A program made the translations under genes and the position numbers. From NCBI RefSeq assembly GCF_900232105.1, contig NZ_LT934425.1, positions 900,001 through 932,000 of the forward strand: DNA of 32,000 bases. Reading direction: 5' to 3'. This stretch comes from Candidatus Kuenenia stuttgartensis. GTDB lineage: Bacteria; Planctomycetota; Brocadiia; Brocadiales; Brocadiaceae. Below are positions 1,411 through 31,834 of this stretch, one piece after another (the first letter of the stretch is position 1; each line of letters begins with the position of its first letter). Under the pieces are notes generated by a model. That model made no database searches. It had not been told where the DNA came from and was given only the letters and a program-made list of their open reading frames with translations.

Positions 1411-1412
1411 GT

Positions 1413-1571: not shown

Positions 1572-1619
1572 AATCGTGAGCGTAAATAAAGGTTAATTGG
1601 ATAAATCAGGTGGCTTCGA

Positions 1620-6596: not shown

Positions 6597-9500
6597 TTAC
6601 ATGCCTTTTGCTACCGTTATGCCCTTTGTTGCTACAAATGATTTTATGCTTACCAGATCATGATCATCGCGGGCGATGATAGTAATCACGTTTGGACCTT
6701 CTTTTAACGAATGTTTTGTATCAATCTTCAATGACGATTGTTGTCTTGGGCTTACATGTTTGTTTGATTTGAAAAAGATTTTATCATTGTTTATCAGTAC
6801 ATAAGCATGTTTTACGTGGGTATCGTCTTTTACAAGTGCAGAAATGGATAATTCTTCCTCGCCAAATAAAATGTTTGGCACGCCATCCAGAGAAATGGTG
6901 GGGGGGATTCGCTGTATAAACATTTCGAGTTCGTCGGATGATTTTCCGGCATCATTATTTACCGCAGTTACGTCCTTTGCAGAAACCCATCCGTATCTAT
7001 TATTAGGAAGTTCCGCCCTGTACCAATCAGCGTTGCTGACGTCAGACTTGAGAATTGTGCCCTCGTTCATCATTGATAAAACAGGGGTGTCAAATGACAT
7101 TCCACCATACAGTGGAATATGGTTTTTGTTTATCTTCAAAAGTTTGGAACTGGCCGTCAGCTTTTGGGGGACACCGGCAACCACGGAGAATTTTAATGTA
7201 TTACTTAAAAAAGCGCCGAAGATAGAGTCGGAAATAATAATATCCACATTAAATTCATTAGAAGCAATTGTTTCTTTGACGTTAAAAGTTAATTCCGCCT
7301 CCTTGATTTCTCCCGGATTTAATTGACCAATTTCAACCCTGCCTTTTTCTACAAACACCTCTTTGTCACTCAAATTTCTGAGGGTAACAACCGTTTTTTC
7401 GGAAATCCCATTTCCCATGTTTTTTACCATGACAAGGAGATTAATATTTTCGCCTTTGTTTATTAATCCATCACCGTTATTTTTGCCTGAAGAGTTTGTT
7501 GCCTGATCTAAAATCTGATAAGAAAAGGCAAAAAGCGGCTGAGGCAATGCCTCTATTGCCACAGTTAAATTAAGATCTGCCGGGTTGTTTTTATTTAACT
7601 CTTCAAATTTAATAGTAATTTCATCTTCCCGATCAAGTGAATTTTTTGGTATTTCTATCGTTTTGGTGTACGTCTTTTTACTTCCTTTGCCTATTTTACC
7701 AAAAATAAATTCATGTTTATCGTACAGACCGTTTTTGCTGGAAGAAATTCCGCGCAATTGATAGAGAGGTTTATCCCCCGTGTTTTCAATAGTTACCGTA
7801 AGCGTAATTTTTTCTCCGGCCTTTACCCGTTTATTAATGGGGTTTGTTAAAAAAGTAACATTTGTTGCGGATGCCCCTTCATTTATCCCTTCAGACCAGT
7901 CAATACTCAAGCTATCAAGCGCCTGTGCTATTTTCTTTTCTTCCTCTTCGGAAATTGCGTCAATTACTGAAAGAGAATTTTGCAGAAAACCTTCCTCTTT
8001 TTTCCATGTAGAAGTGTTTGCCAGTAATTTTCTGGCGAAGACAATATGGAAATCTTTATCAAAATCAGGCAGTTTGTAAGGGTCTTCGTCTTCCGCAGGT
8101 TCCACCTCCGCCTCTTTCCCGGCAACCGCGTCCTCTTTTTTTTCCTTTATTTCATGGAAGTACTTAAGGGTAGCAAAGGGAAATGCATCTTTGTGGTGGT
8201 CGTCCAAATGTTTTTTCAGATCTTCTTCCCTGATTGCCGTGATGCCATGAAAAAGATTGATGTTGTCCTTTTCTACGGTCACCGGAACAAGCTGTATGTC
8301 CGGTGTAATGCCAAAAGATTGAATGTCGGTAAAAAGAGGGGTAAGATATTTTGCGATGGTTAATTTTAGCGCCGAACCGTCCATTAACTCTATAAGCTGC
8401 TGGACAGACCCCTTGCCAAATGTTCTGTCTCCGACGATTATCGCACGGTTATTTTCCTTTAGAGCGCCGGCAACAATTTCAGCCCCTGAGGCGCTTCCTG
8501 CATCGACAAGCACCACTATGGGGTACAGTTCCTCGTCAGTATCCGTTTTTTTTGCATCGATCACTTCTCTGGGATGGCCTCCAGGCCCAACGGTAACAAC
8601 AATAGAGCCACTTTCCAGAAATTTGTCAGACACCTTGATTGCCTGGTCTAACAAACCACCCGAATTGTTCCGCAAATCGAGAATGAGTCCTTTCATTTTA
8701 TCATTGTTTTTGTTTAATTGTTTTAACTGCTCATTAAGGCGCTGAGAGGTATCATCCTGAAAATTCCTGATTCTTACATAGCCATAACCTCCTTCAATAG
8801 ATGCGGATTCTACCGTAGGAATTACTATTATTTCCCGTTTGAGGGCAAAAAGTTTTGTCTCTACTGCTTTATGTTTTAAAATGGAAAGTGTGACGGTTGA
8901 ACCCTGATCACCACGCAGTTTCCCAACAGATTCGGTAAGGTCCATATCTACGGTCGATTCTCCATCAATTTCCACAATTTTATCTCCTGCCTTTATTCCT
9001 GCCACTGCAGCAGGGGTTCCTTCAATGGGAGAAATTACCGTCAGAACGCCATCTCTTATTCCTACCACCATGCCGAGTCCTCCGAACTTGCCGGTAGTGC
9101 CAATCTTAAATTCGGTAAATTGTTTTGGCGGTAAGATAATGGAATGCGGGTCAAGCTGCGTCAACATGCCGTTGATTGCCGTATATTCCACATCGCTGGC
9201 GGTAAGTGATGCGTTCTCTTCCCGATGCTTATTGATAAAATCCAGGGCATCCTGCAGCACTTTGAAAACATCCTTGGACCGGTGAACTTCTGACAAATCA
9301 AATGTCTTTGAAACAGTGTCAACCGTAACGGTGTTTATCTTCTTCTCCTCAGAGTAGTCTACCAAGACTTCAGGTATGACTCTTTCCTGCCAATCAAGAG
9401 CTCCCTTAACCATTTCAACATTATCAATACGGTCAGGGTCAACATACAGGCGGTTAATATAGGAAAGTACAATTCCGGGAAGGCGAAATTTATATTCAGT

Positions 9501-9638
9501 ATCTTCTTTTACTGACAGATTTTCAAAATGGGGTTCCAGACCAAATGTTTTATTGAAAACAACAAAAAAACCGGAAATGGAAGATATAGAAATTATAATT
9601 ATTATTAACACATACTTAAACGGATGCTTTAATCTCAT
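6597..9638 (-). CDS. S41-family C-terminal processing (tail-specific) peptidase with a PDZ domain and a long C-terminal extension containing an SH3b-like segment
   Basis: The PDZ domain reads [41 protein letters not shown]. The S41 core has [13 protein letters not shown] and [39 protein letters not shown]. The SH3b-like segment is [21 protein letters not shown]. I prefer the ATG at 9638 (AAAGGAAA upstream) over the TTG at 9659. Confidence 0.9.
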   Translation of the reverse strand: [1013 protein letters not shown]

Positions 9639-10135
9639 GAATATTTCCTTTTTGATCAAAAAATCAAAGTAACTTTACACAATGTAACTAAACCCTTACT
9701 CAAAAATATAAAGATACGCCGTAAACTGTTGAATAGCAATGATTCGCTCATTAAAAAGGCGAGTAATACGGCAAGAGACCATGCATAACAATTACGATAA
9801 ATGTAGTATCGATTTCATTTTTTGTAAAAGTCCAATACATAACATAATTTTAATGCATTGTGGGAGCTAATCCATGAATTGCCGCCACATAAGGCCAAAA
9901 TAGTGTTTTCCGGTGGTCGATCTCCTTGAAAAACAAAACTCTCACTAACTGGCACTACTGTACACAAGTAGCAATTTGAGTATAGAGAGAAGGAACAGAT
10001 TTATCAAGGAAATTTGCCTTGCCCAGTGATTATGAAAAAAGCATTTGATAATTATAGGAAGAACAGATAAAATGCTACGCTTGTCATAAATTTAGCTTCA
10101 TTCATAGAGTTTTTAGAAAATTTAAGAGGGAAATA

Positions 10136-13606: not shown

Positions 13607-14708
13607 TAAAAATCTGTTTTTTTCTTGCATTTGAATTGTTTCTAGAGTATTAAATTCTGCATGAATCCATTTCTCAGTGAAAAAACCCGAATAGAATTTA
13701 AAAAAGCACATAAGAAAGAGCCTCATAGACGTCATGCCGACCGAATCAAAGCTATACTTCTTCTTGATTCAGGATGGAGTTATGAAGAAGTAGCAGAGGC
13801 GCTCTTGTTAGACGATCAAACAATCAGGAATTACGAAAAACTATACAAAGATAAAGGTTTTGACGGGCTTTTATCTGACAATTATATTGGCTGTGTGCCA
13901 AAACTCACCTGCGAACAAGAAGAACAATTAAAAGATCATATCAGGAAAAACAACTATAGCGCGGCAAAAGAAATTGTTGAATATGTAAAACAGACATTCA
14001 ATAAAATCTATACACCCGAAGGAATGGTACATACCCTCGATAGATTAGGCTTTACTTACAAGAAAACTACAATAGTTCCAGGCAAAGCAAACCCTGAAAA
14101 ACAAAAAGAATTTGTCGAAAAATACAAACAACTCAAAGAAGAGAAAGCCCCCGGAGATAAGATACTTTTTATGGATGGAGTTCATCCACAGCACAATTCT
14201 ACGTCTGCATATTGCTGGATAGAGAAAGGCAAAAAGAAGGAAATACCCTCTAATACCGGCAGGAAAAGAATAAATTTAAACGGTGCTATTGACATAGAAA
14301 CCTTTGAAGTAACAATCCGGGAAGATGAAAGCATCAATGCTCAATCAACAATAAAGCTTTTCCATGAAATAGAGTCAAGGTATGCTCAAGCCGGTACTAT
14401 TTACATAATCTCTGATAATGCTAAATATTACAGGTCTAAGTTGGTCAAAGAATACCTTGCAAATTCGAGAATAAAGATCAAATTTCTCCCTTCCTATTCA
14501 CCCAATTTAAATCTCATTGAAAGATTATGGAAATTCTTTCGCAAAAAAATATTGTATAACAAGTATTATGATACTTATGAGAAGTTTAAAAACAAATGTT
14601 TAAGTTTTTTCAAAAATATTAACGAGTATACAGATGAATTGTCTACTCTTTTAACTGAAAATTTTCAAATTATTGGCGAGCAAATTTCGAAAACCTGATT
14701 TGTTTGAC
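13607..14708 (+). mobile_element. IS630-family (Tc1/mariner-like) insertion sequence, about 1.1 kb; the boundaries are approximate
   Basis: It contains the transposase gene. The boundaries come from TA dinucleotides at 13605-06 and 14709-10. Removing the element at those sites rejoins the two HicB-like fragments in frame. The terminal inverted repeats are only imperfectly visible (aaatctgttttt versus aaaacctgattt). Confidence 0.6.
13661..14698 (+). CDS. IS630-family DDE transposase
   Basis: The N-terminal HTH is ILLLDSGWSYEEVAEALLLDDQTIRNY. The DDE-type blocks are FMDGVHPQHN, IISDNAKYYRS and LPSYSPNLNLIERLWKFFRKK. Confidence 0.9.
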   Translation: MNPFLSEKTRIEFKKAHKKEPHRRHADRIKAILLLDSGWSYEEVAEALLLDDQTIRNYEKLYKDKGFDGLLSDNYIGCVPKLTCEQEEQLKDHIRKNNYSAAKEIVEYVKQTFNKIYTPEGMVHTLDRLGFTYKKTTIVPGKANPEKQKEFVEKYKQLKEEKAPGDKILFMDGVHPQHNSTSAYCWIEKGKKKEIPSNTGRKRINLNGAIDIETFEVTIREDESINAQSTIKLFHEIESRYAQAGTIYIISDNAKYYRSKLVKEYLANSRIKIKFLPSYSPNLNLIERLWKFFRKKILYNKYYDTYEKFKNKCLSFFKNINEYTDELSTLLTENFQIIGEQISKT

Positions 14709-20129: not shown

Positions 20130-21572
20130 CTATTTCACAAGCACTACTTTCAACGTTGTTTTTAGATTATTGTACTTAAATTTCACCTTTGAGGTTCCTT
20201 TCTTCTTTTTTGCAGTAATGTTAAACGCGGCCTCACCGTAGGTTTCTCCTGCAATTGTCATTGTTTTACGTGGAGATGCGGATACCTTCTTTTTGCCATC
20301 TTTGTTTTTCTTCACCGTTGCTTTAACCTTCTCGCCTGATATTGGCAGACAACCTTCGGGGGTTATCAAATACACGGTAACTTCAGCCGTTTGCCCCTTT
20401 TTCAGCTCTATCTCTTCGGGAGAAACAACTATCGAGGTAACTTCACACTCCGATGGGATAGAAGTCTCCGTTGGGTTTGGAGTTGGGCTTGAGGCTGGAG
20501 GTGTTGGCGTAACAACCGTTGCTGCCGCCAATGTAAAGTCACGGACAGTGGTATCGCCTTCAACTATCGCCACGCCTGAAGCCGGCGCCTGAATATATCC
20601 TGCCGCAGAAGCAATAAACGTATAAATTCCATCCGATATATTCTCTAACTGGTAATACCCTGTTGTATCAGTAGTCGTTTTATAGATACCCGAAATGCTT
20701 GATACCGCAGCTCCATTGATACCTTCGCCCGTGTCTTTGTCAGTTACGAATCCGGCAAGTACACCCAATGTTTCACCAGGAAGCGTGGGAGTTGCAACAG
20801 TCACCGGTGTTGGTTCCGTTGTTGGCGTAGCAGTTGGAGTAGCAACAATCGCTGTTGAAGTTGGAGTCGGAGTTGAAGTACTGCCACCACCACCACTACC
20901 GCCGCCGCCACCTCCACCTCCACCTCCACCACCGCCACCGCCGGTTGCTGGGGTAGGAGTTGGGGTTGGTGTAGCTGCCGACAATTGGGACATCGTAAAT
21001 GTGTAGGTATAAACATAGTCTCCTTCAGTTGTTTCATCACCGTTTTCTTGTACTCCTGCCGCATAAAAAGTTACAGGATCATCTATTGTCGTAGAGGGCG
21101 CATTCCACAGTACCTGCCATAAGGGCTGACTGCCTCCTAAAATAGTTTGTGATATGTATTGGTCTGATTTAGAAGCCGATTCACCAACAACGGCGGTGAA
21201 AGTGCCAATGTAATTATTATTCGCATCTAACGCTGTCATATCAAAGCCGTGATTTGGAAAGGCGTCGGTATCGGAACCTTCAAAGGAGACCGTAATCTCA
21301 ACGCTTTCCCCCAGAGTATACGTTTCGGGGGCAGATATTGAAAATATGGCGCTTCCTGAATTCAGCTCAGTTCCAGTGTGACATTCAGAACACGCATCAC
21401 CATCACCATCACCATCGGCATCGGCATCAAGAGGGGAACCTGTATGGTCGTTCCACTCCTCCCCCAATGCCATCGTTGACTTGCAGATTTGTCCAAATAT
21501 AGGACTTACCATAATGCACAACACACAGCATGAAAGGATAAAATACATACACTGCATAAACTTGTTTCGCAT
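20130..21572 (-). CDS. Secreted multidomain protein: signal peptide, Asp/Gly-rich segment with a single CXXCH motif, T/P-rich and poly-Gly linkers, CarboxypepD_reg-like domain, and C-terminal Lys-rich Ig-like (Big_2-like) domain
   Basis: The hydrophobic N-terminus is FILSCCVLCIMVSPIFG, followed by DADADGDGDGDACSECHTG. The poly-Gly run is G15-S-G4. GFVTDKDTGEGINGAAV...GYYQLENISDGIYTFIASAAGY is typical of carboxypeptidase-regulatory-like domains. I prefer the ATG at 21572 (AAAGGAGG upstream) over the GTG at 21584, which abuts the SD. Confidence 0.75.
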   Translation of the reverse strand: MRNKFMQCMYFILSCCVLCIMVSPIFGQICKSTMALGEEWNDHTGSPLDADADGDGDGDACSECHTGTELNSGSAIFSISAPETYTLGESVEITVSFEGSDTDAFPNHGFDMTALDANNNYIGTFTAVVGESASKSDQYISQTILGGSQPLWQVLWNAPSTTIDDPVTFYAAGVQENGDETTEGDYVYTYTFTMSQLSAATPTPTPTPATGGGGGGGGGGGGGGGSGGGGSTSTPTPTSTAIVATPTATPTTEPTPVTVATPTLPGETLGVLAGFVTDKDTGEGINGAAVSSISGIYKTTTDTTGYYQLENISDGIYTFIASAAGYIQAPASGVAIVEGDTTVRDFTLAAATVVTPTPPASSPTPNPTETSIPSECEVTSIVVSPEEIELKKGQTAEVTVYLITPEGCLPISGEKVKATVKKNKDGKKKVSASPRKTMTIAGETYGEAAFNITAKKKKGTSKVKFKYNNLKTTLKVVLVK

Positions 21573-22222
21573 GGTTCGCTGCACCTCCTTTAAAAAATTG
21601 TAATAACTTCCCGGATAAAAACGGAAAGAGGGTTCTGTTGATTAAGCCTCCCATTACTCCCCTTTATGAAAAAACCGGCCTCTCCGACCTATTGATAATG
21701 CTGCATTTTATCTTTAACATTTTGGGAAACCGGAGTAGATCAATAGTGTCATAATATCCTCTTGTAATCGAATCCTTCTAAAACGCCTTTTTTTGCAACG
21801 CTCGTAATAAAGCAATCGCTTAGTTCTACTGAAAAATATGTCTACTGATGAACAACTATTGTGCCATTAACGGAATATTGTTTTTAAAATATCACAAGTC
21901 TTATTTTCAAAAGCAGTTATTAATAACATTGCCACCTATGTGATAAATGAATCAAAAAAACCTCCCGATATAACAAAACAAACACACGCAATATTTGCGC
22001 AAAATAAAACACGAGGTTTTCATTTGCTGTAACAGAGAGATTATCACCTCTTCGAAGCCTGCAAACACAGGTTTTTAGTTTATATAGCCTAACAAATTAG
22101 GTTTTCTAAACATAAAAACATTGCATGCGCATTGAACAAGGGATTGCAGTCCCTTGTTTAAATTCAATTTTCGAAACCTATACGCTTGTGGCGATACGCA
22201 GTATTTGCATGAAGCACGCCAA

Positions 22223-22571: not shown

Positions 22572-22847
22572 ATGAATTTTTCAAAACCAAAGAAGAAACA
22601 GAAAGGTGTGATAATACAGGATATTGGCAAAGAAGTAGTCCTTCGTAATGTTGATGAAAAAACGATTCATGTACTCAATACTACGGCAAGGATTATATGG
22701 GAACTTTGCGATGGCGAGCATACCATCGGGGATATGGAACGTCAATTAAGAGAAACGTTTTCCATACCCGACGATACAAACATTTGCAACGATATAGTAA
22801 ATACGCTGACTGTCCTGGCAGAAAAAGGCATGTTGGAGGAATTATAA
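22572..22847 (+). CDS. PqqD-family peptide-binding protein (RiPP recognition element type)
   Basis: The 91-aa product has the canonical pattern: VVLRNVDEKTIHVLNTTARIIWELCDGEHTIGDMERQLRETFSIPDDTNICNDIVNTLTVLAEKGMLE (LN.ta..iW.l.DG..t..ei...l...y.....a..Dv..fl..L...g). Confidence 0.85.
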   Translation: MNFSKPKKKQKGVIIQDIGKEVVLRNVDEKTIHVLNTTARIIWELCDGEHTIGDMERQLRETFSIPDDTNICNDIVNTLTVLAEKGMLEEL

Positions 22848-22862
22848 AGAAAATACTATTTT

Positions 22863-22888
22863 GTAATACTTTAGTTTTTTGAAAATAT
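22863..22888 (+). repeat. Solo copy of the motif GTAAyAyTTTAG-N4-TTTGAAAA
   Basis: The sequence gtaatactttagttttttgaaaatat matches the outer arms of the 18236-18492 palindrome and the copy at 28384-28410. Confidence 0.55.
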
Positions 22889-23029
22889 TGAAATCCATAA
22901 ACATTTAATGTAGTAGCAAGGCACGCCTTGCCGCTACATGTGGCGGTTATAATATCCGCTTGTAATTAAATATGTTACAAAAACACTTGCCCGCAAGCAT
23001 GCATTTAAAAAACGAAAATTCCTATACTA

Positions 23030-23638
23030 TTAAATAAGGCGTCGATTTATAAAAATGCTCTTATTTTCTGGCGCTTTCCCTCTGCATAAAAAAAGAAATA
23101 TTACTTTACGGAACAGTAAAAAGAGAAAACGTGTGCCACGATTCACAATTGTTTTATTACAATCCTGTTTATTTCCTGTGAATATGTTTCTTTGAAATCC
23201 GCACAACGCGCGAACAACAGGGGTACTCCTTATGATCAACCATCCTGTTGATCTGCCTGCGAAAGTGTCAAGAGAGAGCATCTTTTCCCCTCGTTTAATA
23301 GCGGATACTTTGCCTATTATTTCACTATGGCTCACCACCGGATCGGCATGCGGCACATTGTCTCCCTTTGTAATGAAGGAAAAGCCCGTACCCTTTTCTG
23401 AGATAGTTAATACCCTGTGTACAATAAGCTTGTTCTCCGATCTGAAGGCTATAATATCGCCACGCCGTATCTGTGAATAGCCACACTCAACCAGGACATT
23501 GTCCCCTTCCCTTATGAGCGGATACATACTCCTGCCAACAATGGGGATAGTAAACATTTCATTGGTTTGATCCCATACATTGACGATAGCATGCAGCACT
23601 TCGCCTGAAATATTGTTATGATTTTCTTTTTGCATCAT
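23030..23638 (-). CDS. S26B-type (SipW/Sec11-like) signal peptidase I homologue
   Basis: The Ser box is VGRSMYPLIREGDNV, followed by RRGDIIAF. The His box is LIVHRV, and FITKGDNVPHADPV and IIGKV follow. The hydrophobic segment is at the C-terminus (FLFLLFRKVIFLFLC). Confidence 0.75.
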   Translation of the reverse strand: MMQKENHNNISGEVLHAIVNVWDQTNEMFTIPIVGRSMYPLIREGDNVLVECGYSQIRRGDIIAFRSENKLIVHRVLTISEKGTGFSFITKGDNVPHADPVVSHSEIIGKVSAIKRGEKMLSLDTFAGRSTGWLIIRSTPVVRALCGFQRNIFTGNKQDCNKTIVNRGTRFLFLLFRKVIFLFLCRGKAPENKSIFINRRLI

Positions 23639-23852
23639 ATTAGAATCTTATCAGGAATTTCTTTGCATTTTTTTGGCAACATATTTAATGATCCCTTCTG
23701 CAGTAGGCAATCTACAGTCGGCAGTCGGCAGTTGACTAATGACCTCAAGCCTGTATCCCCCTTTATTAAGGGGTGACTTTTGCGGCCGGTCGCTTAGCTT
23801 AATGACATTGGTTTGCAACCTGGGCCCCACGTTTATGCTGTTCCTGATTTTT

Positions 23853-23938
23853 GTAGAGGTGCATTGCATGCGTCTCTCTGTGGTGTCAACATTTTCTTTA
23901 CGCGCAGCAGTTTCCGGACGCATGCAATGCACCTCTAC
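23853..23938 (-). repeat. Perfect 22-bp inverted repeat (42-nt spacer) between the C25 peptidase stop and the S26 peptidase gene
   Basis: The arms are gtagaggtgcattgcatgcgtc (23853-23874) and gacgcatgcaatgcacctctac (23917-23938). The element starts 6 nt downstream of the C25 stop codon on the minus strand. Confidence 0.8.
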
Positions 23939-23943
23939 ATTTA

Positions 23944-26900
23944 TTACTTTATTTTTACCCTTATTTTTTCGGCAATATTATTCACACTGAATACCACAAC
24001 CGCCTTTCCCTTTTTCTTTGCGGTAATGACAAAAGATGCTTGTCCATCTACATCAGTTACAGCAGTTTTGTTTGCAATTTTTGCAATTTTCTTTCCCTTT
24101 TTTATGTTTGCCTTTATCTCAAAACCCTCCGTATTGCCATTGGTTTCGCATGTTATTGTTATGAGGACTTCCCCTTCTTCTCCTTTCTTAAGCACTAATT
24201 TTTTAGGTTCTGCTTCAATAGCACTTATTGTACATTCCTGTGGTAAAGGAGTAGGCGTAACGGGTATTCCGTCGTCAGCAACAACATGCAACCGTGTTGC
24301 TGGATCCCCAAACAACACAAAAGTCTCTACCAATTCACTCCAATAACTACTCTGGGAGTAAGCATCCAGTTTTGCTTCTGTGCTGATCTCGCCTAAACCA
24401 TATGAAGAACCGGTAAAGACCGATTCATAAAAAGAAAGCATAAGTAATCTGTGTCCCGATGTATAGCTCAGGGCGGTTGCCGCCCATACGGCGATTGCCC
24501 CTTTATCCTGTAATCTCTGAAATTCTTCAGCAACTGAAACCTGTGTGCTTTTCCCCGTAAAAAATCCGTTAAGGCAGTTTGCAACTGTGACAACCGGCAG
24601 TTTATACCAATTATCCAGCAACGCAATGTCATCTGTGGTATAAATAGACGTGCTTGCATTCAGTCCCCACATATTTACAGCCCCGTGTCCAGTGTAATTC
24701 ACCATAAAACAACCGTTATTTATATTCTGGGTTATATTAAATGCCACATCATCGTTTGCAGTATAATCGCCTACATAAACCCTTTTTGCGGTATAGTTAT
24801 CAGGTAATAGTTCAATGATTTCTTCCGAAAGACTTTCAAAAGAAGATTGATCGTCATCCGCTACGAGTAAGACGTTTTTTGCCCAATCTTCCTCGGACGG
24901 ATGCTGATCATAGAATATTACCTTATTAATAATGTCTTCCGCCTGTTCGATTGTTTGCGCACAGAGCCGTCCGATATGCATGTCAGGGAGGATATCATTG
25001 CCACTTACAAGTACAAACCAGTTATCCGAAGGCGTCTCTCCCAATTCGTCAGTTTCTATAATCTGGGAAGGGACGTAATTTATCGTGCCTGATGCTAAGT
25101 TATCGTTGTAATCCTGATACGCGTCTCCTATTAATACAACGTATGCAGGGGCGGGTTCCTGCCAATTGTTATACGTGTAAGACAGGAAATCCCGTATTGC
25201 CTGCGGGGAAAAAATACCGTCATTAAATTCATCATAAATATCGCCAACCTTCACCGTAACCACCCTTAAACCATCATCGATGCGATGGCTGGCCAATGCA
25301 AGCGCATTATCATAAAAATCTTCATGCGTGATAATAATATAGTCCGCTCCCTTATCGGATGATTTCCATGATGATGTTTCATCCTTTTCAATTGCAAAGG
25401 GAGTTTTATATTGCGCTAATGTCAATGCCAGAAATCTTGTATCAGATTGGGCAACCCCTTCGAATTGTAATGTATATCTTTTGTTGTCGTTTACAATATT
25501 TGTGTTAATTACGCGCACAACTGCGTTGTGGTCTGTAATGTCAAATGCCTCCATATCACTGCCGGTGAAGGAGGATACTTCAAATTGATAGACGCCTTCA
25601 GAAGGCGCACGGAAAAATAGCTCATCATTTTCTGCAACATACGTATCAAGGTAGTCTATCTCTGCCCAGTTGATCAGCAATTGATCAACCGAAGCCCCTG
25701 TATCACCCACGGTTTCTACCGTAATGGTATTTTTCCCATTGTTTAAATACTCATGGGATACGGTTGCTTCATGATTGAAGACTATTCGTCCATCCCAGTA
25801 TTGATCGTCTATCTCTTTGTCATTTATATATATCTTTGTATGGTGATCCGGGTCACTCTTGCTGACGTCTGTATATCCCTTTAATTGCACCCGTATAGCA
25901 GCGGTCTCTGGACCCGAAAGGATATTTTTTATATTCAGGGTAAGCTCTTTTGTTTGCGGTGCAGTCAGTTTGCCGCCCCAGAAATAATGATCCTGTCCTT
26001 CACCCTCCGGCATTGTTTGCCAGTAATATGTATTTTCTTCAACATGGATCGTTGCTGGAAAGTAATCAGGAACAATAGCGTTGCCCGAAGTGGCGCCGTC
26101 GTGGATATTCATACGGACGCCACTGGTAGCGCCGGCGGTTAGCCAGTAAACATTTTTATCGGTATAGATATCGGTATATTCTTCGCCATAAAAAACGATA
26201 GTATCCGAAGTATTAAATACACCATCCTCTTCACCTTCAATAAATATGGCAACGTCCTCTCCCTTATTTGTCATAGTCAAAGTGCGGGGATCTATTGCGT
26301 CCACATCAAATCCGGCATCGATAAGATCATTGTAAGTTAATGTATACATGCCTTCTTCTTTCACGGTTATTTTAAGCCTGGGGGAAACCTCAGCGCCGGA
26401 ACTGTCCATTTTTCTTTGAACGGGGGTACGGTATGAATTCTCCGCAATCACAGGGCGTTTTATATTGTGGTAATTTATGATTTTCTTTTTAAGAAGATTT
26501 TCAAAAAAAGGACTTGCCATTGAAGTTTTTTTTTCAGGAGAAAGGTGACCCTCTTTCCATGAAACACGGGCGACAATCTTTCGGTAAATGCGTACCTCGC
26601 CAGTGACGGGATTGAACTGAACAGGCGTGAAATGTACTTGTGCGACCGGTTGATCGCGCAGGTATCCTTTATTGCCCATTTTTACCGGTGTGTCTGGAAA
26701 GAAGGCGTTAGAGGTATATATATGCTGATTTTCAAAGAACGTCTGCTTTATACTGCCGGAGGGGAATGTATCCTGGTTTTCCCCTTCTATCCCGGATTTA
26801 GGGGCAGGATATATATTGTATCCCTGCAAGGTTTCGTATTGTGCATCTAAAATATCAAGAGAGACGCCATGAATGACCGGCAAACCAACCATTGTTCCGC

Positions 26901-27198
26901 ACTGTGGCAATTGTGGTTCCCCAGGCATGGCGCTTTGTATGGTGTCTTGTATACAAATACGCTGATATGTTTTTCCCTCATGTTGTAATGTTTCGGTATG
27001 AAAGCCGTCTATAGTAAATTCAAGTTCAATTGACCGGCTGTCTGATGGCAATAATGTAACAGAGGCGTTGCACAATCCTGTATACCACAGCATCAGGAAG
27101 GATAGTATGGCGACTAGAGGTGCAATGACCATGCACAGTGAATAATAAGAACGGTTGCGGCGTACGAAAAATATTTTTACTATCCATCTTCTTATCAT
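23944..27198 (-). CDS. Membrane-anchored C25-family (gingipain-like) cysteine peptidase with a C-terminal Lys-rich Ig-like domain
   Basis: The N-terminal TM anchor is MVIAPLVAILSFLMLWY. C25 hallmarks are ADYIIITHEDF...LASHR, IFSPQAIRDFL, YVVLIGDA, PSDNWF, DMHIGRL, the His box VNYTGHGAVNMWG and the Cys box VTVANCLNGFF. I prefer the ATG at 27198 (GGGGGAGAAAG upstream) over the listed TTG at 27213. Confidence 0.85.
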   Translation of the reverse strand: MIRRWIVKIFFVRRNRSYYSLCMVIAPLVAILSFLMLWYTGLCNASVTLLPSDSRSIELEFTIDGFHTETLQHEGKTYQRICIQDTIQSAMPGEPQLPQCGTMVGLPVIHGVSLDILDAQYETLQGYNIYPAPKSGIEGENQDTFPSGSIKQTFFENQHIYTSNAFFPDTPVKMGNKGYLRDQPVAQVHFTPVQFNPVTGEVRIYRKIVARVSWKEGHLSPEKKTSMASPFFENLLKKKIINYHNIKRPVIAENSYRTPVQRKMDSSGAEVSPRLKITVKEEGMYTLTYNDLIDAGFDVDAIDPRTLTMTNKGEDVAIFIEGEEDGVFNTSDTIVFYGEEYTDIYTDKNVYWLTAGATSGVRMNIHDGATSGNAIVPDYFPATIHVEENTYYWQTMPEGEGQDHYFWGGKLTAPQTKELTLNIKNILSGPETAAIRVQLKGYTDVSKSDPDHHTKIYINDKEIDDQYWDGRIVFNHEATVSHEYLNNGKNTITVETVGDTGASVDQLLINWAEIDYLDTYVAENDELFFRAPSEGVYQFEVSSFTGSDMEAFDITDHNAVVRVINTNIVNDNKRYTLQFEGVAQSDTRFLALTLAQYKTPFAIEKDETSSWKSSDKGADYIIITHEDFYDNALALASHRIDDGLRVVTVKVGDIYDEFNDGIFSPQAIRDFLSYTYNNWQEPAPAYVVLIGDAYQDYNDNLASGTINYVPSQIIETDELGETPSDNWFVLVSGNDILPDMHIGRLCAQTIEQAEDIINKVIFYDQHPSEEDWAKNVLLVADDDQSSFESLSEEIIELLPDNYTAKRVYVGDYTANDDVAFNITQNINNGCFMVNYTGHGAVNMWGLNASTSIYTTDDIALLDNWYKLPVVTVANCLNGFFTGKSTQVSVAEEFQRLQDKGAIAVWAATALSYTSGHRLLMLSFYESVFTGSSYGLGEISTEAKLDAYSQSSYWSELVETFVLFGDPATRLHVVADDGIPVTPTPLPQECTISAIEAEPKKLVLKKGEEGEVLITITCETNGNTEGFEIKANIKKGKKIAKIANKTAVTDVDGQASFVITAKKKGKAVVVFSVNNIAEKIRVKIK

Positions 27199-27216
27199 CT
27201 TTCTCCCCCTCAAGGA

Positions 27217-28359
27217 CTATGTACACACTTCGGCGCATACTATATCCGCCATATCTTGTAAGCGACCGGCAGTTAAGTGGTAGCATCGTGCTTTTGCGAT
27301 AATATTTGATAATTCCATGAACAATCGAATCGAACTGCCTTTAAATTCGTCCAGCAATATTTTTGATTTATAACTGCCCTGGTAATTCCCCAGAAGCGCA
27401 AGAGCTGCCTGGCTAACGGGTATGGGAAGAAGTCTTGCATTGCCGTTGAACGAAGCGTGTCCTTCTGTTCCCTTGAGGACGTCTAGCACAAGTATTTTGT
27501 GCATGGCGCATATTGTCTCTATTTTAGAAAGAATTTTATTTGCCTTGTCCGCACGTAGTATGAGTGCTGGAAAACTACCATTTACATCAACGTACATATT
27601 CCGTACCCCGGCAATGTTTTCTATGAGACGCAACACTTCATCATTCATTTTATCAACGAGAATGGTTAAGTCCTGTTCGTTGTTTTTCGTAATTCCCTTC
27701 TCATTCTGCAAAAAGAAAATATACTCAACGGGCACTTTCGTGCCAGAACTGCCCGGCAGTATTTGATCAATATCCAAAAGCAGTTTATCCAGCCATTCCT
27801 CTCCGCCGATAGTATTGTCCGGAAATCCAACCAATGATAACGTATCCTTTCGAACCCGCAGGCTTCGGGGAAACGGGTACACTAAATGGTCGTGTCTCCC
27901 CAGGGCAGCCATTTCATCAGAAAGAAATTTAAACCCTCTCTTCAGAAGTGTTAGTACTAAGGTAGTCTTGCCATACCCGCCATCTGCCACGATAAGCACG
28001 CCGTGGTTATCGAAGGAAACTACACCGGCATGTATTAAAAAATGGCTTTTTATGCGGGTAATAATTGACATGAGTATGCATTCATAAGCAAATCCGTCTA
28101 ATAATTTAGGATCATTAAGCGGCCATATCTCATCATTGCACATTAATACCGGCTTGCCAAAAATGTTGTCAGGATGTGTAATTAAAGAGAATTCTATCTG
28201 CGATGCAGGAAGAGAGGGAAATTCATTCTTCAGAAACCGACTATACATCTTTGTAAAAAGGTCAATAAATTCAATGGAATCAGATTTGATTGTTACCACC
28301 AAATCAAAGAAATAGAGCGTTACTTTGTTAAGAAGATACGGTTTTTGTAATAATCCCAT
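27217..28359 (-). CDS. HprK-related P-loop kinase (homologous to the HPr kinase/phosphorylase C-terminal domain)
   Basis: IHAGVVSFDNHGVLIVADGGYGKTTLVLTLLKRGFKFLSDEMAAL matches the HprK C-domain pattern (lHa..v...g.gvli.G.sG.GKSt.al.L...G..lvsDD). The stop is 18 nt before the C25 start. Confidence 0.8.
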   Translation of the reverse strand: MGLLQKPYLLNKVTLYFFDLVVTIKSDSIEFIDLFTKMYSRFLKNEFPSLPASQIEFSLITHPDNIFGKPVLMCNDEIWPLNDPKLLDGFAYECILMSIITRIKSHFLIHAGVVSFDNHGVLIVADGGYGKTTLVLTLLKRGFKFLSDEMAALGRHDHLVYPFPRSLRVRKDTLSLVGFPDNTIGGEEWLDKLLLDIDQILPGSSGTKVPVEYIFFLQNEKGITKNNEQDLTILVDKMNDEVLRLIENIAGVRNMYVDVNGSFPALILRADKANKILSKIETICAMHKILVLDVLKGTEGHASFNGNARLLPIPVSQAALALLGNYQGSYKSKILLDEFKGSSIRLFMELSNIIAKARCYHLTAGRLQDMADIVCAEVCT

Positions 28360-28383
28360 GGGGTATTTATATATTAAAAAAAA

Positions 28384-28410
28384 GGTAACACTTTAGAGTT
28401 TTGAAAAACC
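28384..28410 (+). repeat. Solo copy of the motif GGTAACACTTTAG-N4-TTTGAAAAA, 25 nt upstream of the kinase start
   Basis: The sequence ggtaacactttagagttttgaaaaacc has the same orientation as the copy at 22863-22888. The leftward flank (attaaaaaaaagg) also resembles the flank of the 18236 copy. Confidence 0.55.
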
Positions 28411-28705
28411 ATAAAAGCAAAATCATGCAGTTCAGCAGTCATTCAGCATACCCGCTCTTCAATTCCACCCCCTACACCCCCGCCAGCGGGGGACAGTTTA
28501 TGCAACTGCTCTTGTTCTCAAACTCCGGCATGGAAACGAGCGTTTTTAATTTTTCAAAAGACGAAATTGATACAAAAATATTGTATACTCAAGATGCTCA
28601 CAATTTGTGATTTGCCCCCCCGTGAGTAAGAAAGCCCCGTTCGTGAGAGCAATGCCTCTTCCAGATTTTCTAACGGGGTTTATAGACAATGTCGTACAAG
28701 TTCAA

Positions 28706-28730
28706 CACGGACAAACAAAGTTTGTCCGTG
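28706..28730 (-). terminator. Stem-loop (perfect 11-bp stem, 3-nt loop) between the small-peptide region and the kinase gene; a possible attenuator or terminator
   Basis: The sequence is cacggacaaac-aaa-gtttgtccgtg. On the minus strand it is followed by ttgaacttgt, only a weak T-tract. Confidence 0.45.
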
Positions 28731-28753
28731 CCACCCAGATATCAATTTAAAAT

Positions 28754-28819
28754 TCACATTTTATGCGCTTCTTGAGTATAACCATTCATGTAACCGGCAT
28801 GGGCAGTTACCAGGATGCC
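28754..28819 (-). other. Out-of-frame, start-less duplicate of the 3' end of the small ORF (GILVTAHAGYMNGYTQEAHKM*)
   Basis: The DNA ctggtaactgcccatgccggttacatgaatggttatact aligns with ttaggcgctgcccatactggttatgtaaatggcggcaat of the upstream ORF (about 24 of 39 identical). The fragment is in the +1 frame and bounded upstream by a TAG. Only non-canonical starts are available (ATC or CTG after an AGGTGG). Confidence 0.35.
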
Positions 28820-28835
28820 CTATCCACCTGCTGTG

Positions 28836-28967
28836 CTATCCAAGAATATTGCCGCCATTTACATAACCAGTATGGGCAGCGCCTAATTTCTCAAGCAGTT
28901 CTTCATCTGTATAAGTTTCAATCTTTGGCGGCTCATACGTCAACACGGGTCCATTTTGTACATTCAT
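28836..28967 (-). CDS. Small ORF of 43 aa, absent from the ORF track: candidate precursor peptide MNVQNGPVLTYEPPKIETYTDEELLEKLGAAHTGYVNGGNILG
   Basis: This is my own translation of the minus strand. The ATG at 28967 is preceded by AAGGAGG with a 6-nt spacer (gaaaggaggttgcacATG), and the stop is a TAG at 28838-28836. The peptide has an acidic helical leader-like half and a Gly/Asn-rich tail. The gene lies upstream of, and co-oriented with, the kinase and peptidase genes. The listed plus-strand ORF 28763-28996 is its antisense shadow. Confidence 0.6.
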   Translation of the reverse strand: MNVQNGPVLTYEPPKIETYTDEELLEKLGAAHTGYVNGGNILG

Positions 28968-29091: not shown

Positions 29092-29967
29092 TTACTCCGA
29101 CACTATTACCCGCACCTTAATTGGCCCATGCATGGTGCTCTTGCCATTTGTATCAATATCTTCCAATGTGTAAAAGTATCTGCCACTGCGATCAAGGATG
29201 TCTAAATAGCTGTAGCTTGCACCATAGACCGCATCGCCAGATGCTTCGATTAATTCATCATTAATTCTGGTGTACGGACCTCCCCTCTGCTTTGCGCGGT
29301 GAATGTTGAAGCCTGCGTTGTATATTTCAGTGACAGTTTCCCATTCCAGCATGATTTCTTCTTCAAATGCGGTAGCCGTAAAAGAGGTAAGCTCTACTGC
29401 GGTAGTTTCACAAAGAACCTCCAAATCTATCGCACTGTCATCAACTGCGGCAGTTTGTTTTTTGCCGTTTACAGATACCTGAGCATGTATATTTAAATTG
29501 TCATATGTACCTTCTGAAAGAGACACTGCAGCTTCCCATCCCTCAGCTTTTCCGCTGTTAAGTCCTATCCACGCAAAATCCGGTGGTGTGCCATCATTGT
29601 TATCATCACCATCAACAAGTTTGGTGGATTTCCCTGACTTTATAAAATTGTCATCCGGCGATGCCAACACTTTCCCAGTCACACCTAATACCAAAGCATA
29701 CAGAATTTCATTTGTACAATCATAACGAAGATAAAGCTTTGCATCGATGGAAGGATTTTTCTTATCAGATCTACCCGCTCTCCACATATTGGCAAAAAAA
29801 TCGCCGCTCCCATCTTCTGCCAGATTCCATTCACTTTCATCACCATCTACCGTCGCCGTGCCAAAAGCTGGCACTGGAGGACTCGCGGCAAAGGCCGATG
29901 AAATAAAACTATTATTCATTATTACACACACTATTAATGCAAATAATGTTATTCCTGCTTTAAACAT
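29092..29967 (-). CDS. Secreted protein of unknown function with a conserved-looking C-terminal beta-sandwich module
   Basis: I chose the ATG at 29967, which gives a classical signal peptide: MFKAGITLFALIVCVIMNNSFISSAFA|ASPP. The C-terminal module is VELTSFTATA..IMLEWETVTEIYNAGFNIHRA....GPYTRIN..LI.A......ASYSYLD......RYFYTLEDIDTNGKSTMHGP. Confidence 0.6.
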   Translation of the reverse strand: MFKAGITLFALIVCVIMNNSFISSAFAASPPVPAFGTATVDGDESEWNLAEDGSGDFFANMWRAGRSDKKNPSIDAKLYLRYDCTNEILYALVLGVTGKVLASPDDNFIKSGKSTKLVDGDDNNDGTPPDFAWIGLNSGKAEGWEAAVSLSEGTYDNLNIHAQVSVNGKKQTAAVDDSAIDLEVLCETTAVELTSFTATAFEEEIMLEWETVTEIYNAGFNIHRAKQRGGPYTRINDELIEASGDAVYGASYSYLDILDRSGRYFYTLEDIDTNGKSTMHGPIKVRVIVSE

Positions 29968-30502: not shown

Positions 30503-31834
30503 CTAAAAGGTCAATCCCAGGCCAAGAGATACCGCATTTTTCAATAAATCGCCGGAATCAAAAGTATTATCTCTGTTCGCATATGAATAATCAAACTCTG
30601 CAAACCACCATTTTTGAGGGCGATATTTAACATTTAAATGCACATGAAAACTGTCAACATCTTCAACCACACCCGACGTACCAGTCGATTCTGCAAATCT
30701 CATGTTCCAATAATACACATCAAGGTATCCATCAATACGGTCATGTTGGTTAATATATTTTATACCGACTTTTGTGTAAAAATAAGAATTATTATTTGCC
30801 TGCCGTTGTTCTTTCAGACTCCTCTCACCATAAATTTCAACCGATGAAACGGGATTAATGAGATAGCGATCTCCCAGCACAACATTCCATCCCTCAAAAT
30901 TTTCTATGTTACTATGCTTTTTATATTTTGAAGTTCTGTAGTTCGTATTTAAATATATTTCATTTTTCTGATTAATAGTCCAGGAAATGTTTAACGGTAT
31001 GTCGTTTTTATAATTATCTCTATTCTTAGAGGTCTCAGCATCATATCGTTGAATGGAGTAAACGAACCCCGAAGACACCTTAACAGGCAGTAAAGGATAA
31101 TTATATTCTATGATTGCGCCCAGAGTATCAAGATTATAGTCGTCACTCTTAAATTCGTCTTTTTGATAACTCACATCCTGGTTATTATAACGTATCAGAA
31201 AATCAACGTTAGGAAAGAAATCAGGAAAATCCATTTCAAAGGAAGCAATATTTGTGGTAAGGTCTCTTTTCCCAACGAAAACATTCGGCCCCTGATCTTC
31301 AAAAGGGATGTCCAGGTCATCAATATCGCCGAAGGACCTTCTTTGAAAACCAGGAGGAATCACATGTTTTCTAAACCGGTCACTGAAAACAAACGAAAAA
31401 TCATTTGCGAAATAAAATCCAAGCGAGCCTTCCCACGATTGATTCACGCGATCCCTTTCCTGTTCATGCTCGTAATCATAAATCTCTACATCATATTTGA
31501 AATGTGAAAGCAAGTAATCTGAAAAAGGTGCTGCAATCAATAATGATGGCCGATGCAAGGTATAAAGATCAGAAACCTCTTCCTCTGCCGCATCATATAC
31601 ATTGTCATCATATATTTCATTTACCTGATATGAGGGCTTTATACCGACAGGCCCAATATGAATATCGTTATATAACAACGAAAGCTCATCCATAATATTA
31701 AATTCTGATGCGGCAGAAAGCCCCTTCATTTCATAATTATCAACATCTATTTCCTCAGACATTCCACAAGGATATCGATATGCCGCAGAAAAAAAGACCA
31801 ATAATAGTATAAACCTAAAATATTTTACGCCCAA
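30503..31834 (-). CDS. Outer-membrane beta-barrel protein
   Basis: The TTG start at 31834 has an AAGGAG SD 5 nt upstream. It has a signal-like N-terminus, alternating aromatic/polar beta-strand patterns throughout, and a terminal ..VSLGLGLTF ending in Phe, the typical OMP C-terminal signature. Confidence 0.65.
   Translation of the reverse strand: MGVKYFRFILLLVFFSAAYRYPCGMSEEIDVDNYEMKGLSAASEFNIMDELSLLYNDIHIGPVGIKPSYQVNEIYDDNVYDAAEEEVSDLYTLHRPSLLIAAPFSDYLLSHFKYDVEIYDYEHEQERDRVNQSWEGSLGFYFANDFSFVFSDRFRKHVIPPGFQRRSFGDIDDLDIPFEDQGPNVFVGKRDLTTNIASFEMDFPDFFPNVDFLIRYNNQDVSYQKDEFKSDDYNLDTLGAIIEYNYPLLPVKVSSGFVYSIQRYDAETSKNRDNYKNDIPLNISWTINQKNEIYLNTNYRTSKYKKHSNIENFEGWNVVLGDRYLINPVSSVEIYGERSLKEQRQANNNSYFYTKVGIKYINQHDRIDGYLDVYYWNMRFAESTGTSGVVEDVDSFHVHLNVKYRPQKWWFAEFDYSYANRDNTFDSGDLLKNAVSLGLGLTF

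What the first reader, a model, noticed from the sequence alone, without database searches (positions are those of the whole stretch)
22572..28967. Candidate undescribed peptide-maturation system: small SD-driven ORF, HprK-like kinase, C25 peptidase, S26B peptidase and a PqqD-type recognition protein
The minus strand carries five elements in order:
- a 43-codon ORF with a textbook SD (28836-28967);
- an 11-bp stem-loop (28706-28730);
- an HprK-related P-loop kinase (27217-28359);
- a TM-anchored C25 cysteine peptidase, 18 nt downstream (23944-27198);
- a SipW-type S26B peptidase (23030-23638).

A 91-aa PqqD-family protein (22572-22847) converges on this operon.

Established knowledge: stand-alone PqqD-like proteins are leader-peptide-binding RiPP recognition elements in the PQQ, lasso-peptide and mycofactocin pathways. 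HprK-like kinases phosphorylate lasso precursor peptides in paeninodin-type clusters.

This window has no lasso cyclase or transglutaminase-like protease, no radical-SAM enzyme and no YcaO. Two unrelated peptidases take their place.

Inference: a kinase-modified, proteolytically matured peptide, or a peptide-guided protease system, of a type I cannot match to any described RiPP class. The upstream secreted protein (29092-29967) and OMP (30503-31834) are co-oriented and might belong to it.
Basis: partly seen in the sequence, partly recalled or inferred. Interest (0 to 1): 0.85.

Follow-up and report, generated by a model that had tools for sequence, protein, structure and literature searches.

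The report
Phosphopeptide gene cluster with surface-protein protease
This anammox bacterium carries a conserved gene set that most likely makes a small phosphorylated peptide, a kind first described in 2026 in Bacillota only; here it is joined to a gingipain/PorU-like protease and to secreted proteins that share one tail domain, a link nobody has described.

Summary
All six genes exist at the stated coordinates, and the 43-codon ORF is a real, conserved gene.

Across 93 non-redundant loci (Brocadiales, Chloroflexota, Desulfobacterota) the kinase is flanked by:
- a small precursor gene: 50 of 68 loci with at least 1 kb upstream;
- usually a PqqD-type recognition protein, an NTP_transf_5 enzyme and an ABC exporter.

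The precursors have a conserved leader, LPxYExPxVxTYTDEEILEELGPA[Q/H][A/T], followed by a hypervariable core (median 11 aa).

This gene set matches the Linear Polyphosphorylated Peptide (LPP) pathway of Popov et al. (Nat Commun, May 2026), which that paper says is restricted to Bacillota.

What looks new:
- the spread to other phyla;
- short cores in which Tyr is often the only hydroxyl residue;
- in about two thirds of loci, a PorU-like C25 peptidase plus secreted proteins that all end in one ~105-aa domain, each encoded directly upstream of a precursor gene;
- two natural fusions that join cargo, tail domain, membrane helix and precursor in one protein.

The chemistry of the product and the role of C25 are inferred, not shown.

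The parts
28836..28967 (-). Precursor peptide gene, 43 aa: MNVQNGPVLTYEPPKIETYTDEELLEKLGAAHT|GYVNGGNILG. The leader carries a YxxPx[I/V] RRE-binding motif. The predicted cleavage site is after A-x-[A/T]. The core is 10 aa and Tyr2 is its only hydroxyl residue.
   Evidence: SD AGGAGG, 6 nt spacing. (called as a 43-aa gene in other assemblies). (family of 126 representatives; -3 = Ala in 110/116; -1 = Ala/Thr in 109/116). (identical to KsCSTR_16760 of Ca. Kuenenia stuttgartiensis).
27217..28359 (-). HprK-like P-loop kinase (380 aa), the counterpart of LppK. Walker A is A-D-G-G-Y-G-K-T-T. H110 and D148 are conserved.
23944..27198 (-). C25 cysteine peptidase of PorU-like architecture. It has an N-terminal signal anchor, a Propeptide_C25 domain and a catalytic domain with the His (YTGHG) and Cys (ANCLNG) of gingipains. 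Its C-terminal domain resembles the C-terminus of the anammox S-layer protein Kustd1514. It is an accessory module, present in 24 of 34 related loci.
23030..23638 (-). Archaeal-type signal-peptidase-I-like (S26B, SipW-like) peptidase, the predicted leader peptidase and counterpart of LppS. The Ser37/His74/Asp93 boxes are conserved. It has no N-terminal TM segment; hydrophobic segments follow the catalytic domain.
   Evidence: Precedent for the function.
22572..22847 (+). Stand-alone PqqD-family RiPP recognition element, the counterpart of LppB. It is convergent here but co-directional and upstream in most other loci.
   Evidence: the best true PDB match is LppB (9x8z_B, E 0.009).
29092..29967 (-). 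Secreted cargo protein (291 aa): signal peptide plus two beta-sandwich domains. The last ~105 aa (about 29095-29415) are the conserved C-terminal domain shared by all cargo proteins of C25-containing loci.
28754..28819 (-). Relic of a second precursor gene. It has no leader and reads ..GILVTAHAGYMNGYTQEAHKM*, resembling the paralogous cores GYVNGYN of Ca. K. hertensis.
   Evidence: L013 paralogues.
28706..28730 (-). Stable stem-loop between the precursor and kinase genes. It may be a transcript-stabilising or attenuating element, but it is not conserved.

Best explanation
The locus is an LPP-type (linear phosphorylated peptide) RiPP pathway in Candidatus Kuenenia stuttgartiensis, extended by a surface-protein processing module.

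**Proposed steps**
1. The 43-aa precursor is bound through its Y-E-P-P-K-I motif by the stand-alone PqqD protein. (Inferred from homology and motif.)
2. The HprK-like kinase phosphorylates a hydroxyl residue at the start of the core, possibly several times. Here that can only be Tyr2. (Inferred by analogy with LppK, which polyphosphorylates core Ser3.)
3. The cytoplasm-facing signal-peptidase-I-like enzyme cuts after Ala-x-Thr/Ala and releases the 10-residue core GYVNGGNILG. (Inferred from the conserved A-x-[A/T] site and the LppS precedent.)
4. Related loci add an NTP_transf_5 enzyme and an ABC-2 exporter. This genome has neither in the locus.
5. In this subfamily the extracytoplasmic C25 peptidase most likely recognises the shared C-terminal domain of the co-encoded secreted proteins. 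How that step uses the peptide is unknown.

**Shown here:** gene content, conservation, motifs, catalytic residues, co-occurrence and fusions.
**Not shown:** any chemistry.
For: **Cassette conservation** (93 non-redundant loci)
- S26-type peptidase in 31/34 loci with enough downstream sequence.
- Precursor in 50/68, NTP_transf_5 in 23/34, ABC exporter in 14/34, PqqD in 15/22 loci with large context.

**Precursor family**
- Conserved leader and hypervariable core.
- Tandem precursor arrays of 3-4 genes (L050, L051).
- S/T/Y at core position +2 in 69/116 against an 18.8% background (p = 4e-22).

**Published LPP system** with the same parts and experimentally shown roles (PMC13381572)
- LppK polyphosphorylates core Ser3.
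- LppS (Ser/His/Asp) cuts after T-1 and needs LppB.
- Residues -3 to -1 matter for cleavage.

**Window proteins**
- The window peptidase passes the archaeal SPase I model, keeps S37/H74/D93 and lacks an N-terminal anchor.
- The window PqqD's best real PDB match is LppB.
- The kinase fold and P-loop are intact.

**C25 module**
- The catalytic His and Cys are conserved and the architecture is PorU-like.
- C25 and the cargo tail domain co-occur: 16 loci with both, 16 with neither, 7 and 4 discordant (Fisher p = 0.002).
- Cargo genes sit directly upstream of precursor genes, sometimes as repeated pairs.
- Two fusion proteins, P0234 and P0247, join cargo, tail domain, TM helix and precursor.
Against: - No direct sequence comparison with LppK, LppS or LppA was possible. 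Family membership rests on shared architecture, profile hits and one weak PDB match (E 0.009).
- The leader consensus differs from LppA's, and the YxxP motif lies about 7 residues further from the predicted cut site.
- LppK did not phosphorylate Thr or Tyr variants, yet Tyr is the only hydroxyl residue in this core.
- The window locus has no exporter and no NTP transferase.
- The kinase matches HprK profiles only below their curated cut-offs.
- 7 of 23 C25 loci show no tail-domain protein within the sequence held.
- The same tail domain also occurs in FCB-group proteins, just before a T9SS sorting domain. It is therefore not unique to this system.
Confidence: 0.72

Rival explanations
1. The cassette is mainly a surface-protein sorting system. 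C25 is a PorU-like sortase, the shared C-terminal domain is its sorting signal, and the S26-type enzyme is a dedicated signal peptidase for the cargo, as SipW is for TasA. The peptide, kinase and PqqD are regulatory or incidental.
For: - The C25 architecture is PorU-like.
- The cargo proteins have signal peptides and a common extreme C-terminal domain.
- The S26B enzyme belongs to the SipW/archaeal type.
Against: - The peptidase, kinase, PqqD and precursor persist together in at least 16 loci that lack both C25 and cargo.
- The peptidase lacks the N-terminal anchor that places normal signal peptidases outside the membrane.
- The precursor has a conserved A-x-[A/T] site.
- LppS is experimentally a leader peptidase.
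Confidence: 0.08
2. The matured, modified peptide is a direct partner of the C25 enzyme. It would act either as the amine acceptor onto which C25 transfers cargo after removing the tail domain (sortase-like transpeptidation, as PorU does onto A-LPS), or as an activator or guide of the protease.
For: - One-to-one adjacency of cargo and precursor genes, including repeated pairs (L013, L020, L024).
- Rosetta-stone fusions.
- Gly at core position +1 in 21/44 precursors of C25/cargo loci against 1/18 in C25-less loci (p = 0.0013).
- C25 and cargo are gained or lost together across the kinase tree.
Against: - There is no biochemical evidence of any kind.
- The window locus has no exporter to bring the peptide to the outer face.
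- In the fusions the peptide lies on the cytoplasmic side of the membrane helix.
- The Gly enrichment is not corrected for shared ancestry.
Confidence: 0.15
3. It is a degenerate or atypical lasso-peptide cluster of the paeninodin type that has lost its cyclase and B2 protease.
For: It shares parts with phosphorylated lasso clusters: a PqqD B1-like RRE, an HprK-like kinase, a nucleotidyltransferase, an exporter and a YxxPxL-type leader motif.
Against: - No Asn-synthase-like cyclase or transglutaminase-like protease appears among recurrent neighbours in 93 loci or in the Pfam-annotated loci.
- Cores are too short for a lasso and lack a conserved acidic residue at positions 7-9.
- The architecture is stably conserved across phyla.
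Confidence: 0.03

Closest known systems
Linear Polyphosphorylated Peptide (LPP) clusters of Bacillota: lppA-K-B-S-D-N of Paenibacillus alginolyticus (Popov et al., Nat Commun 2026, PMC13381572)
   Same: - A precursor with an N-terminal YxxPxV RRE-binding leader and a variable C-terminus.
- An HprK-like kinase.
- A discrete PqqD-type RRE.
- An archaeal-type, SipW-like signal peptidase I with a Ser/His/Asp triad as leader peptidase.
- Thr or a small residue at -1, and a hydroxyl residue at core position 2-3.
- NTP transferase and exporter in most related loci.
- No cyclase.
   Different: - Found in Planctomycetota (anammox), Chloroflexota and Desulfobacterota, whereas the paper calls LPPs restricted to Bacillota.
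- The leader consensus is LPxYExPxVxTYTDEEILEELGPAQ[A/T], not YxxPxVLxHQxIxFETxxS.
- Cores have a median of 11 aa, against 45 aa in LppA.
- The candidate phosphosite is often Tyr.
- The exporter is ABC-2/DrrA-like rather than MsbA-like, and is absent from this window.
- It carries an added C25 peptidase and cargo proteins, plus a subgroup with RRE-fused radical SAM enzymes.
Phosphorylated and phosphoglycosylated lasso peptides (paeninodin, pseudomycoidin)
   Same: An HprK-like kinase acts on the linear precursor. A nucleotidyltransferase is the second tailoring enzyme. There is a PqqD B1 protein and a [Y/W]xxPxL leader motif.
   Different: There is no macrolactam synthetase and no B2 cysteine protease. 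The phosphosite cannot be a C-terminal Ser, because C-termini here are variable and rarely Ser.
Type IX secretion attachment step: the PorU sortase and C-terminal-domain cargo
   Same: A C25-family peptidase whose region 280-977 matches the PorU model (E 3e-84). There are multiple secreted cargo proteins with unrelated passenger domains and one shared beta-sandwich domain at the extreme C-terminus.
   Different: - The score is below the PorU family cut-off.
- The cargo tail is not the Por_Secre_tail domain. In FCB-group proteins it sits just upstream of that domain.
- The host phyla are not known to have T9SS.
- The module is embedded in a RiPP cluster.
SynChlorMet (SCM) cassette and the HPr-rel-A system (NCBIfam/TIGRFAM definitions)
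   Same: An HprK-related P-loop protein is paired with a PqqD-family protein. Homologues of the window kinase carry weak PF27840 (ScmC) hits. A divergent subgroup of the family has RRE-fused radical SAM/SPASM enzymes.
   Different: The window kinase scores far below the HprK_rel_A cut-off (59 against 200 bits). The PqqD is below the ScmD cut-off. There is no radical SAM enzyme in this locus.

Membership tests
LPP (linear polyphosphorylated peptide) RiPP cluster | Archaeal-type (SipW-like) signal peptidase I with a Ser/His/Asp triad, encoded next to a discrete RRE | tested here: met
   TIGR02228 at 78.4 bits against a cut-off of 51.85. S37/H74/D93 boxes are conserved in 21 homologues. PqqD lies 183 nt away. 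Co-occurrence across loci.
LPP (linear polyphosphorylated peptide) RiPP cluster | HprK-like kinase in the cluster | tested here: met
   P-loop match to HprK. The AF2 model's best PDB matches are HprK/P. Walker A and the catalytic His/Asp are invariant.
LPP (linear polyphosphorylated peptide) RiPP cluster | Precursor with a conserved N-terminal leader containing YxxPx[V/L/I] and a variable C-terminus | tested here: met
   The rest of the leader consensus differs from the published LppA logo.
LPP (linear polyphosphorylated peptide) RiPP cluster | NTP transferase (LppN) and an MsbA-like exporter (LppD) in the core cluster | tested here: not met
   Neither is present in the window or within 10 kb in the identical genome contig. 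In related loci NTP_transf_5 occurs in 23/34 and an ABC-2-type (not MsbA-like) exporter in 14/34.
LPP (linear polyphosphorylated peptide) RiPP cluster | Sequence homology of the kinase, peptidase and RRE to LppK, LppS and LppB themselves | tested here: inconclusive
   Only LppB was reachable, through the PDB. It is the best true hit for the window PqqD, but weak (E 0.009).
LPP (linear polyphosphorylated peptide) RiPP cluster | Polyphosphorylation of a core residue and RRE-dependent leader cleavage | not testable with these tools
   Needs expression and mass spectrometry.
Lasso peptide cluster | Asn-synthetase-like macrolactam cyclase, a transglutaminase-like B2 protease, and a core with Asp/Glu at position 7-9 | tested here: not met
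   Neither enzyme appears in the annotated loci or among recurrent neighbours. No conserved acidic residue in the cores.
Type IX secretion PorU/CTD sorting | PorU-family sortase above the family threshold, and cargo ending in a Por_Secre_tail (T9SS type A/B) domain | tested here: not met
   T9SS_sortase scores 283 bits against a cut-off of 420. The cargo tail has no Pfam or NCBIfam hit, and in T9SS proteins it aligns to a domain that precedes Por_Secre_tail.
HPr-rel-A system / SCM cassette | Kinase and PqqD above the equivalog cut-offs; for SCM, also radical SAM/SPASM partners | tested here: not met
   HprK_rel_A scores 58.8 against 200. ScmD scores 28.7 against 100. There is no radical SAM gene in the window.

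The most novel reading that the evidence does not exclude
A RiPP pathway coupled to protein sorting. In Chloroflexota and anammox Planctomycetota, a PorU-like C25 transpeptidase would remove a shared C-terminal domain from Sec-exported cargo and join the cargo to a short phosphorylated, possibly glycosylated, peptide made by the LPP-type enzymes, or would otherwise depend on that peptide. This would be a T9SS-independent, peptide-mediated surface-anchoring system. A side claim is an HprK-like kinase that phosphorylates Tyr.
Probability: 0.15. Interest if true: 0.9.

Novelty: new variant of a known kind. Interest (0 to 1): 0.6.

Why it matters
- LPPs were described only months ago. Their final structure and function are unknown, and they were reported as confined to Bacillota. 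This locus shows the same logic in anammox bacteria, Chloroflexota and Desulfobacterota, with at least 126 precursor clusters.
- The variant offers a functional lead that the Bacillota systems lack: a tight genetic link, including natural fusions, to a PorU-like protease and its probable cargo.
- That link makes the question of what LPPs are for directly testable, by asking whether they take part in building the cell surface.
- The very short cores make product detection by mass spectrometry easier than with the 45-residue LppA core.
- If Tyr is the modified residue, the known chemistry of HprK-like peptide kinases would widen.

Tried and rejected
- **Macrolactam idea.** I considered a head-to-side-chain ring (N-terminus to Asp at positions 6-9) made by the P-loop enzyme. 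I rejected it because the acidic residue is not conserved and is Asn in this window.
- **T9SS sorting domain.** I asked whether the cargo tail is the T9SS sorting domain. It is not. In Ignavibacteria-type proteins it precedes Por_Secre_tail.
- **Regulatory RNA.** I looked for one in the 476-nt precursor-kinase spacer. Rfam gave nothing relevant. The hairpin is not conserved in L012, and the promoter and terminator scans were at background.
- **Genomic context of the fusion proteins.** Only short contigs without the cassette were found.
- **Cargo model.** Fold search gave only generic Ig/Fn3 matches.
- **Literature searches** on Pfam accessions, ScmC/SynChlorMet, anammox RiPPs, and C25/PorU outside Bacteroidota found nothing on this system.
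- **Word-indexed protein search** with the 43-aa peptide reached only 7 close relatives. The exhaustive profile search was needed.
Full report
**1. The observation**

- The short ORF begins at ATG 28967. AGGAGG lies 6 nt upstream.
- It encodes MNVQNGPVLTYEPPKIETYTDEELLEKLGAAHTGYVNGGNILG.
- The sequence is identical to the annotated hypothetical protein KsCSTR_16760 of Candidatus Kuenenia stuttgartiensis.
- The whole region is identical to a 369-kb contig of GCA_027493735.1.

Profile searches confirm the domains:
- PqqD (PF05402, E 2e-11).
- Propeptide_C25 plus Peptidase_C25 (E 1e-28 and 2e-96).

The kinase matches HprK models only over the P-loop segment and below curated cut-offs. Other evidence supports the assignment:
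- Walker A (G130 K131 T132 T133), H110 and D148 are invariant in 96 homologues.
- A confident AF2 model (pLDDT 86.8) finds HprK/P and PEPCK as its best PDB folds.

The 28706-28730 hairpin is stable (dG -20.6 kcal/mol, z -3.7). It has no T-tract and is absent from the shorter spacer of the nearest other Kuenenia species.

**2. Conservation**

Homologues of the kinase were collected as follows:
- the protein database (265 hits);
- 30 loci from species-representative genomes;
- 80 metagenome loci.

They come from Brocadiales, Anaerolineae, Caldilineae, Chloroflexaceae and Desulfobacterota. Home-built HMMs were run on all six-frame ORFs. Counts over the 93 non-redundant loci:

| Feature | Loci with it | Loci with enough sequence to judge |
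|---|---|---|
| S26-type peptidase | 31 | 34 (at least 5.5 kb downstream) |
| NTP_transf_5 | 23 | 34 |
| ABC-2 exporter | 14 | 34 |
| C25 peptidase | 24 | 34 |
| Small precursor gene | 50 | 68 (at least 1 kb upstream) |
| PqqD | 15 | 22 (large context) |

No Asn-synthase-like cyclase or transglutaminase-like protease recurs (Pfam-annotated loci).

**3. The precursor family**

An exhaustive profile search of 1.84 billion representatives found 126 hits at E <= 1e-3, nearly all of 35-100 aa. Their features:
- A conserved leader, LPxYExPxVxTYTDEEILEELGPA[Q/H][A/T].
- A hypervariable tail rich in Gly, Pro, Ser and Tyr, with a median length of 11 aa.
- Position -3 is Ala in 110/116, and -1 is Ala or Thr in 109/116. 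This is a signal-peptidase-I-type A-x-A site.
- Position +2 is Tyr, Ser or Thr in 69/116, against an 18.8% background (p = 4e-22).
- Some loci carry 3-4 tandem precursor genes (L050, L051).

**4. What it is**

A literature search found Popov et al., Nat Commun, 20 May 2026 (PMC13381572). That paper defines Linear Polyphosphorylated Peptides by this same set:
- precursor LppA with a YxxPxV leader;
- HprK-like LppK;
- discrete RRE LppB;
- SipW-like signal peptidase I LppS;
- exporter LppD;
- NTP transferase LppN.

The paper shows experimentally that:
- LppK places several phosphates on core Ser3;
- LppS (S29/H68/D93) cuts after T-1 and needs LppB;
- residues -3 to -1 matter for cleavage.

It states that SpI-like peptidases were new to RiPP pathways, that LPPs are restricted to Bacillota, and that their function is unknown.

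The window proteins fit this scheme:
- The peptidase keeps S37/H74/D93, has a conserved N-terminal helix and lacks an N-terminal membrane anchor. Its catalytic domain should therefore face the cytoplasm.
- The best true PDB match of the window PqqD is LppB (9x8z_B, E 0.009). That is better than PqqD itself or a paeninodin-type B1.

I therefore read the core of the finding as an LPP-type pathway outside Bacillota. The steps (RRE binding, phosphorylation near the core N-terminus, cleavage after A-H-T) are inferred by analogy and motif. They are not demonstrated.

**5. What differs**

- The leader consensus is different, and the YxxP motif lies about 7 residues further from the cut site.
- The core here has Tyr2 as its only hydroxyl residue, whereas LppK did not accept Tyr or Thr variants.
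- This window has no NTP transferase and no exporter. Exporters in related loci are DrrA/ABC-2 type.

The largest difference is the C25 module.
- The window C25 protein keeps the gingipain catalytic His (YTGHG) and Cys (ANCLNG), and it aligns to PorU (6za2) and to the PorU family model.
- Every large secreted protein encoded directly upstream of a precursor gene in C25 loci ends in the same ~105-aa domain..SFTA..WETATEIDNAGFNLYR..YYYKLEDVD..HGP... This includes the window's 291-aa protein at 29092-29967.
- That domain has no Pfam or NCBIfam model. It is predicted to be a beta-sandwich.
- Loci carry up to five such cargo genes, sometimes as repeated cargo-precursor pairs (L013, L020, L024).
- C25 and the tail domain co-occur: 16 loci with both, 16 with neither, 7 with C25 only and 4 with the tail domain only (Fisher p = 0.002). 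Three of those last four are contigs cut off soon after the kinase.
- On a kinase tree, loci with and without C25 are interleaved. The module has therefore been gained or lost repeatedly, and as a unit.
- Two proteins, P0234 and P0247, fuse signal peptide, passenger, tail domain, a TM helix with a basic stop-transfer, and a complete precursor (leader plus core) in one chain. This is Rosetta-stone evidence of a functional link. It also places the precursor part on the cytoplasmic side.
- Precursors of C25/cargo loci start their core with Gly in 21/44 cases, against 1/18 in C25-less loci (p = 0.0013, not corrected for phylogeny).

**6. Limits**

- The tail domain is not the T9SS sorting domain. 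In FCB-group proteins it lies just upstream of Por_Secre_tail.
- The C25 protein is below the PorU family cut-off.
- Nothing shows what C25 cuts, or whether the peptide reaches it.
- The published paper does not mention C25, Chloroflexota or Planctomycetota, and no other paper on this combination was found. The searched library is incomplete, however.

**7. Verdict**

- It is out of date in calling the type unmatched to any described RiPP class.
- It is wrong to treat the two peptidases as equivalent.

The finding is a new variant of a recently described kind. Its genuinely unexplained part is the coupling to a PorU-like protease and tail-domain cargo. The OMP at 30503-31834 and the 484-aa protein at 20130-21584 are neighbours only within Kuenenia and are not part of the conserved system.

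Noticed in passing
window 28754-28819 (-): Directly after the precursor stop codon lies a leaderless relic of a second precursor (..VTAHAGYMNGYTQEAHKM*). A similar relic is present in L012. It resembles the intact paralogous cores of Ca. K. hertensis, which suggests turnover or recombination of core cassettes.
   Followed up: partly
window 23852-23874 / 23917-23939: A perfect 23-nt inverted repeat with a 42-nt spacer sits just downstream of the C25 stop codon, in the 305-nt gap before the peptidase gene. It gave spurious microRNA-like Rfam hits. It could be a terminator, a stabiliser or a small inserted element.
   Followed up: no
L106 7600-11128; also L101-L103, L107, L113, L115, L119, L124, L126, L081: A divergent branch of the kinase family (about 30% identity) pairs the kinase with an RRE-fused radical SAM/SPASM enzyme and RDD-family membrane proteins. 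Its precursors have the same leader but Cys-rich cores (CTSTPCPVSP). This is an SCM-cassette-like hybrid, and the two cargo-precursor fusion proteins carry this core type.
   Followed up: partly
window 20130-21584 (-) and 23944-24260 (-): [quoted passage not shown] It may be an anammox-specific surface-anchoring domain.
   Followed up: no
L009 2043-3098 and homologues in L027, L028, L031, L037, L055, L074, L081, L090: In Chloroflexota loci a ~350-aa protein with only weak SdrD_B/CarboxypepD_reg-like hits recurs next to the PqqD gene. It is not present in the window.
   Followed up: no
P0338, P0346 and related FCB-group proteins: The cargo tail domain of this system also occurs as the penultimate domain of many T9SS cargo proteins, immediately before Por_Secre_tail. 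No Pfam or NCBIfam model covers it.
   Followed up: partly
window 571-3245 (+), 6597-9659 (-), 13661-14698 (+): Unrelated neighbours: a DpnII-type restriction-modification pair, a 1020-aa S41 peptidase with PDZ and CARDB domains, and a DDE_3 transposase.
   Followed up: no
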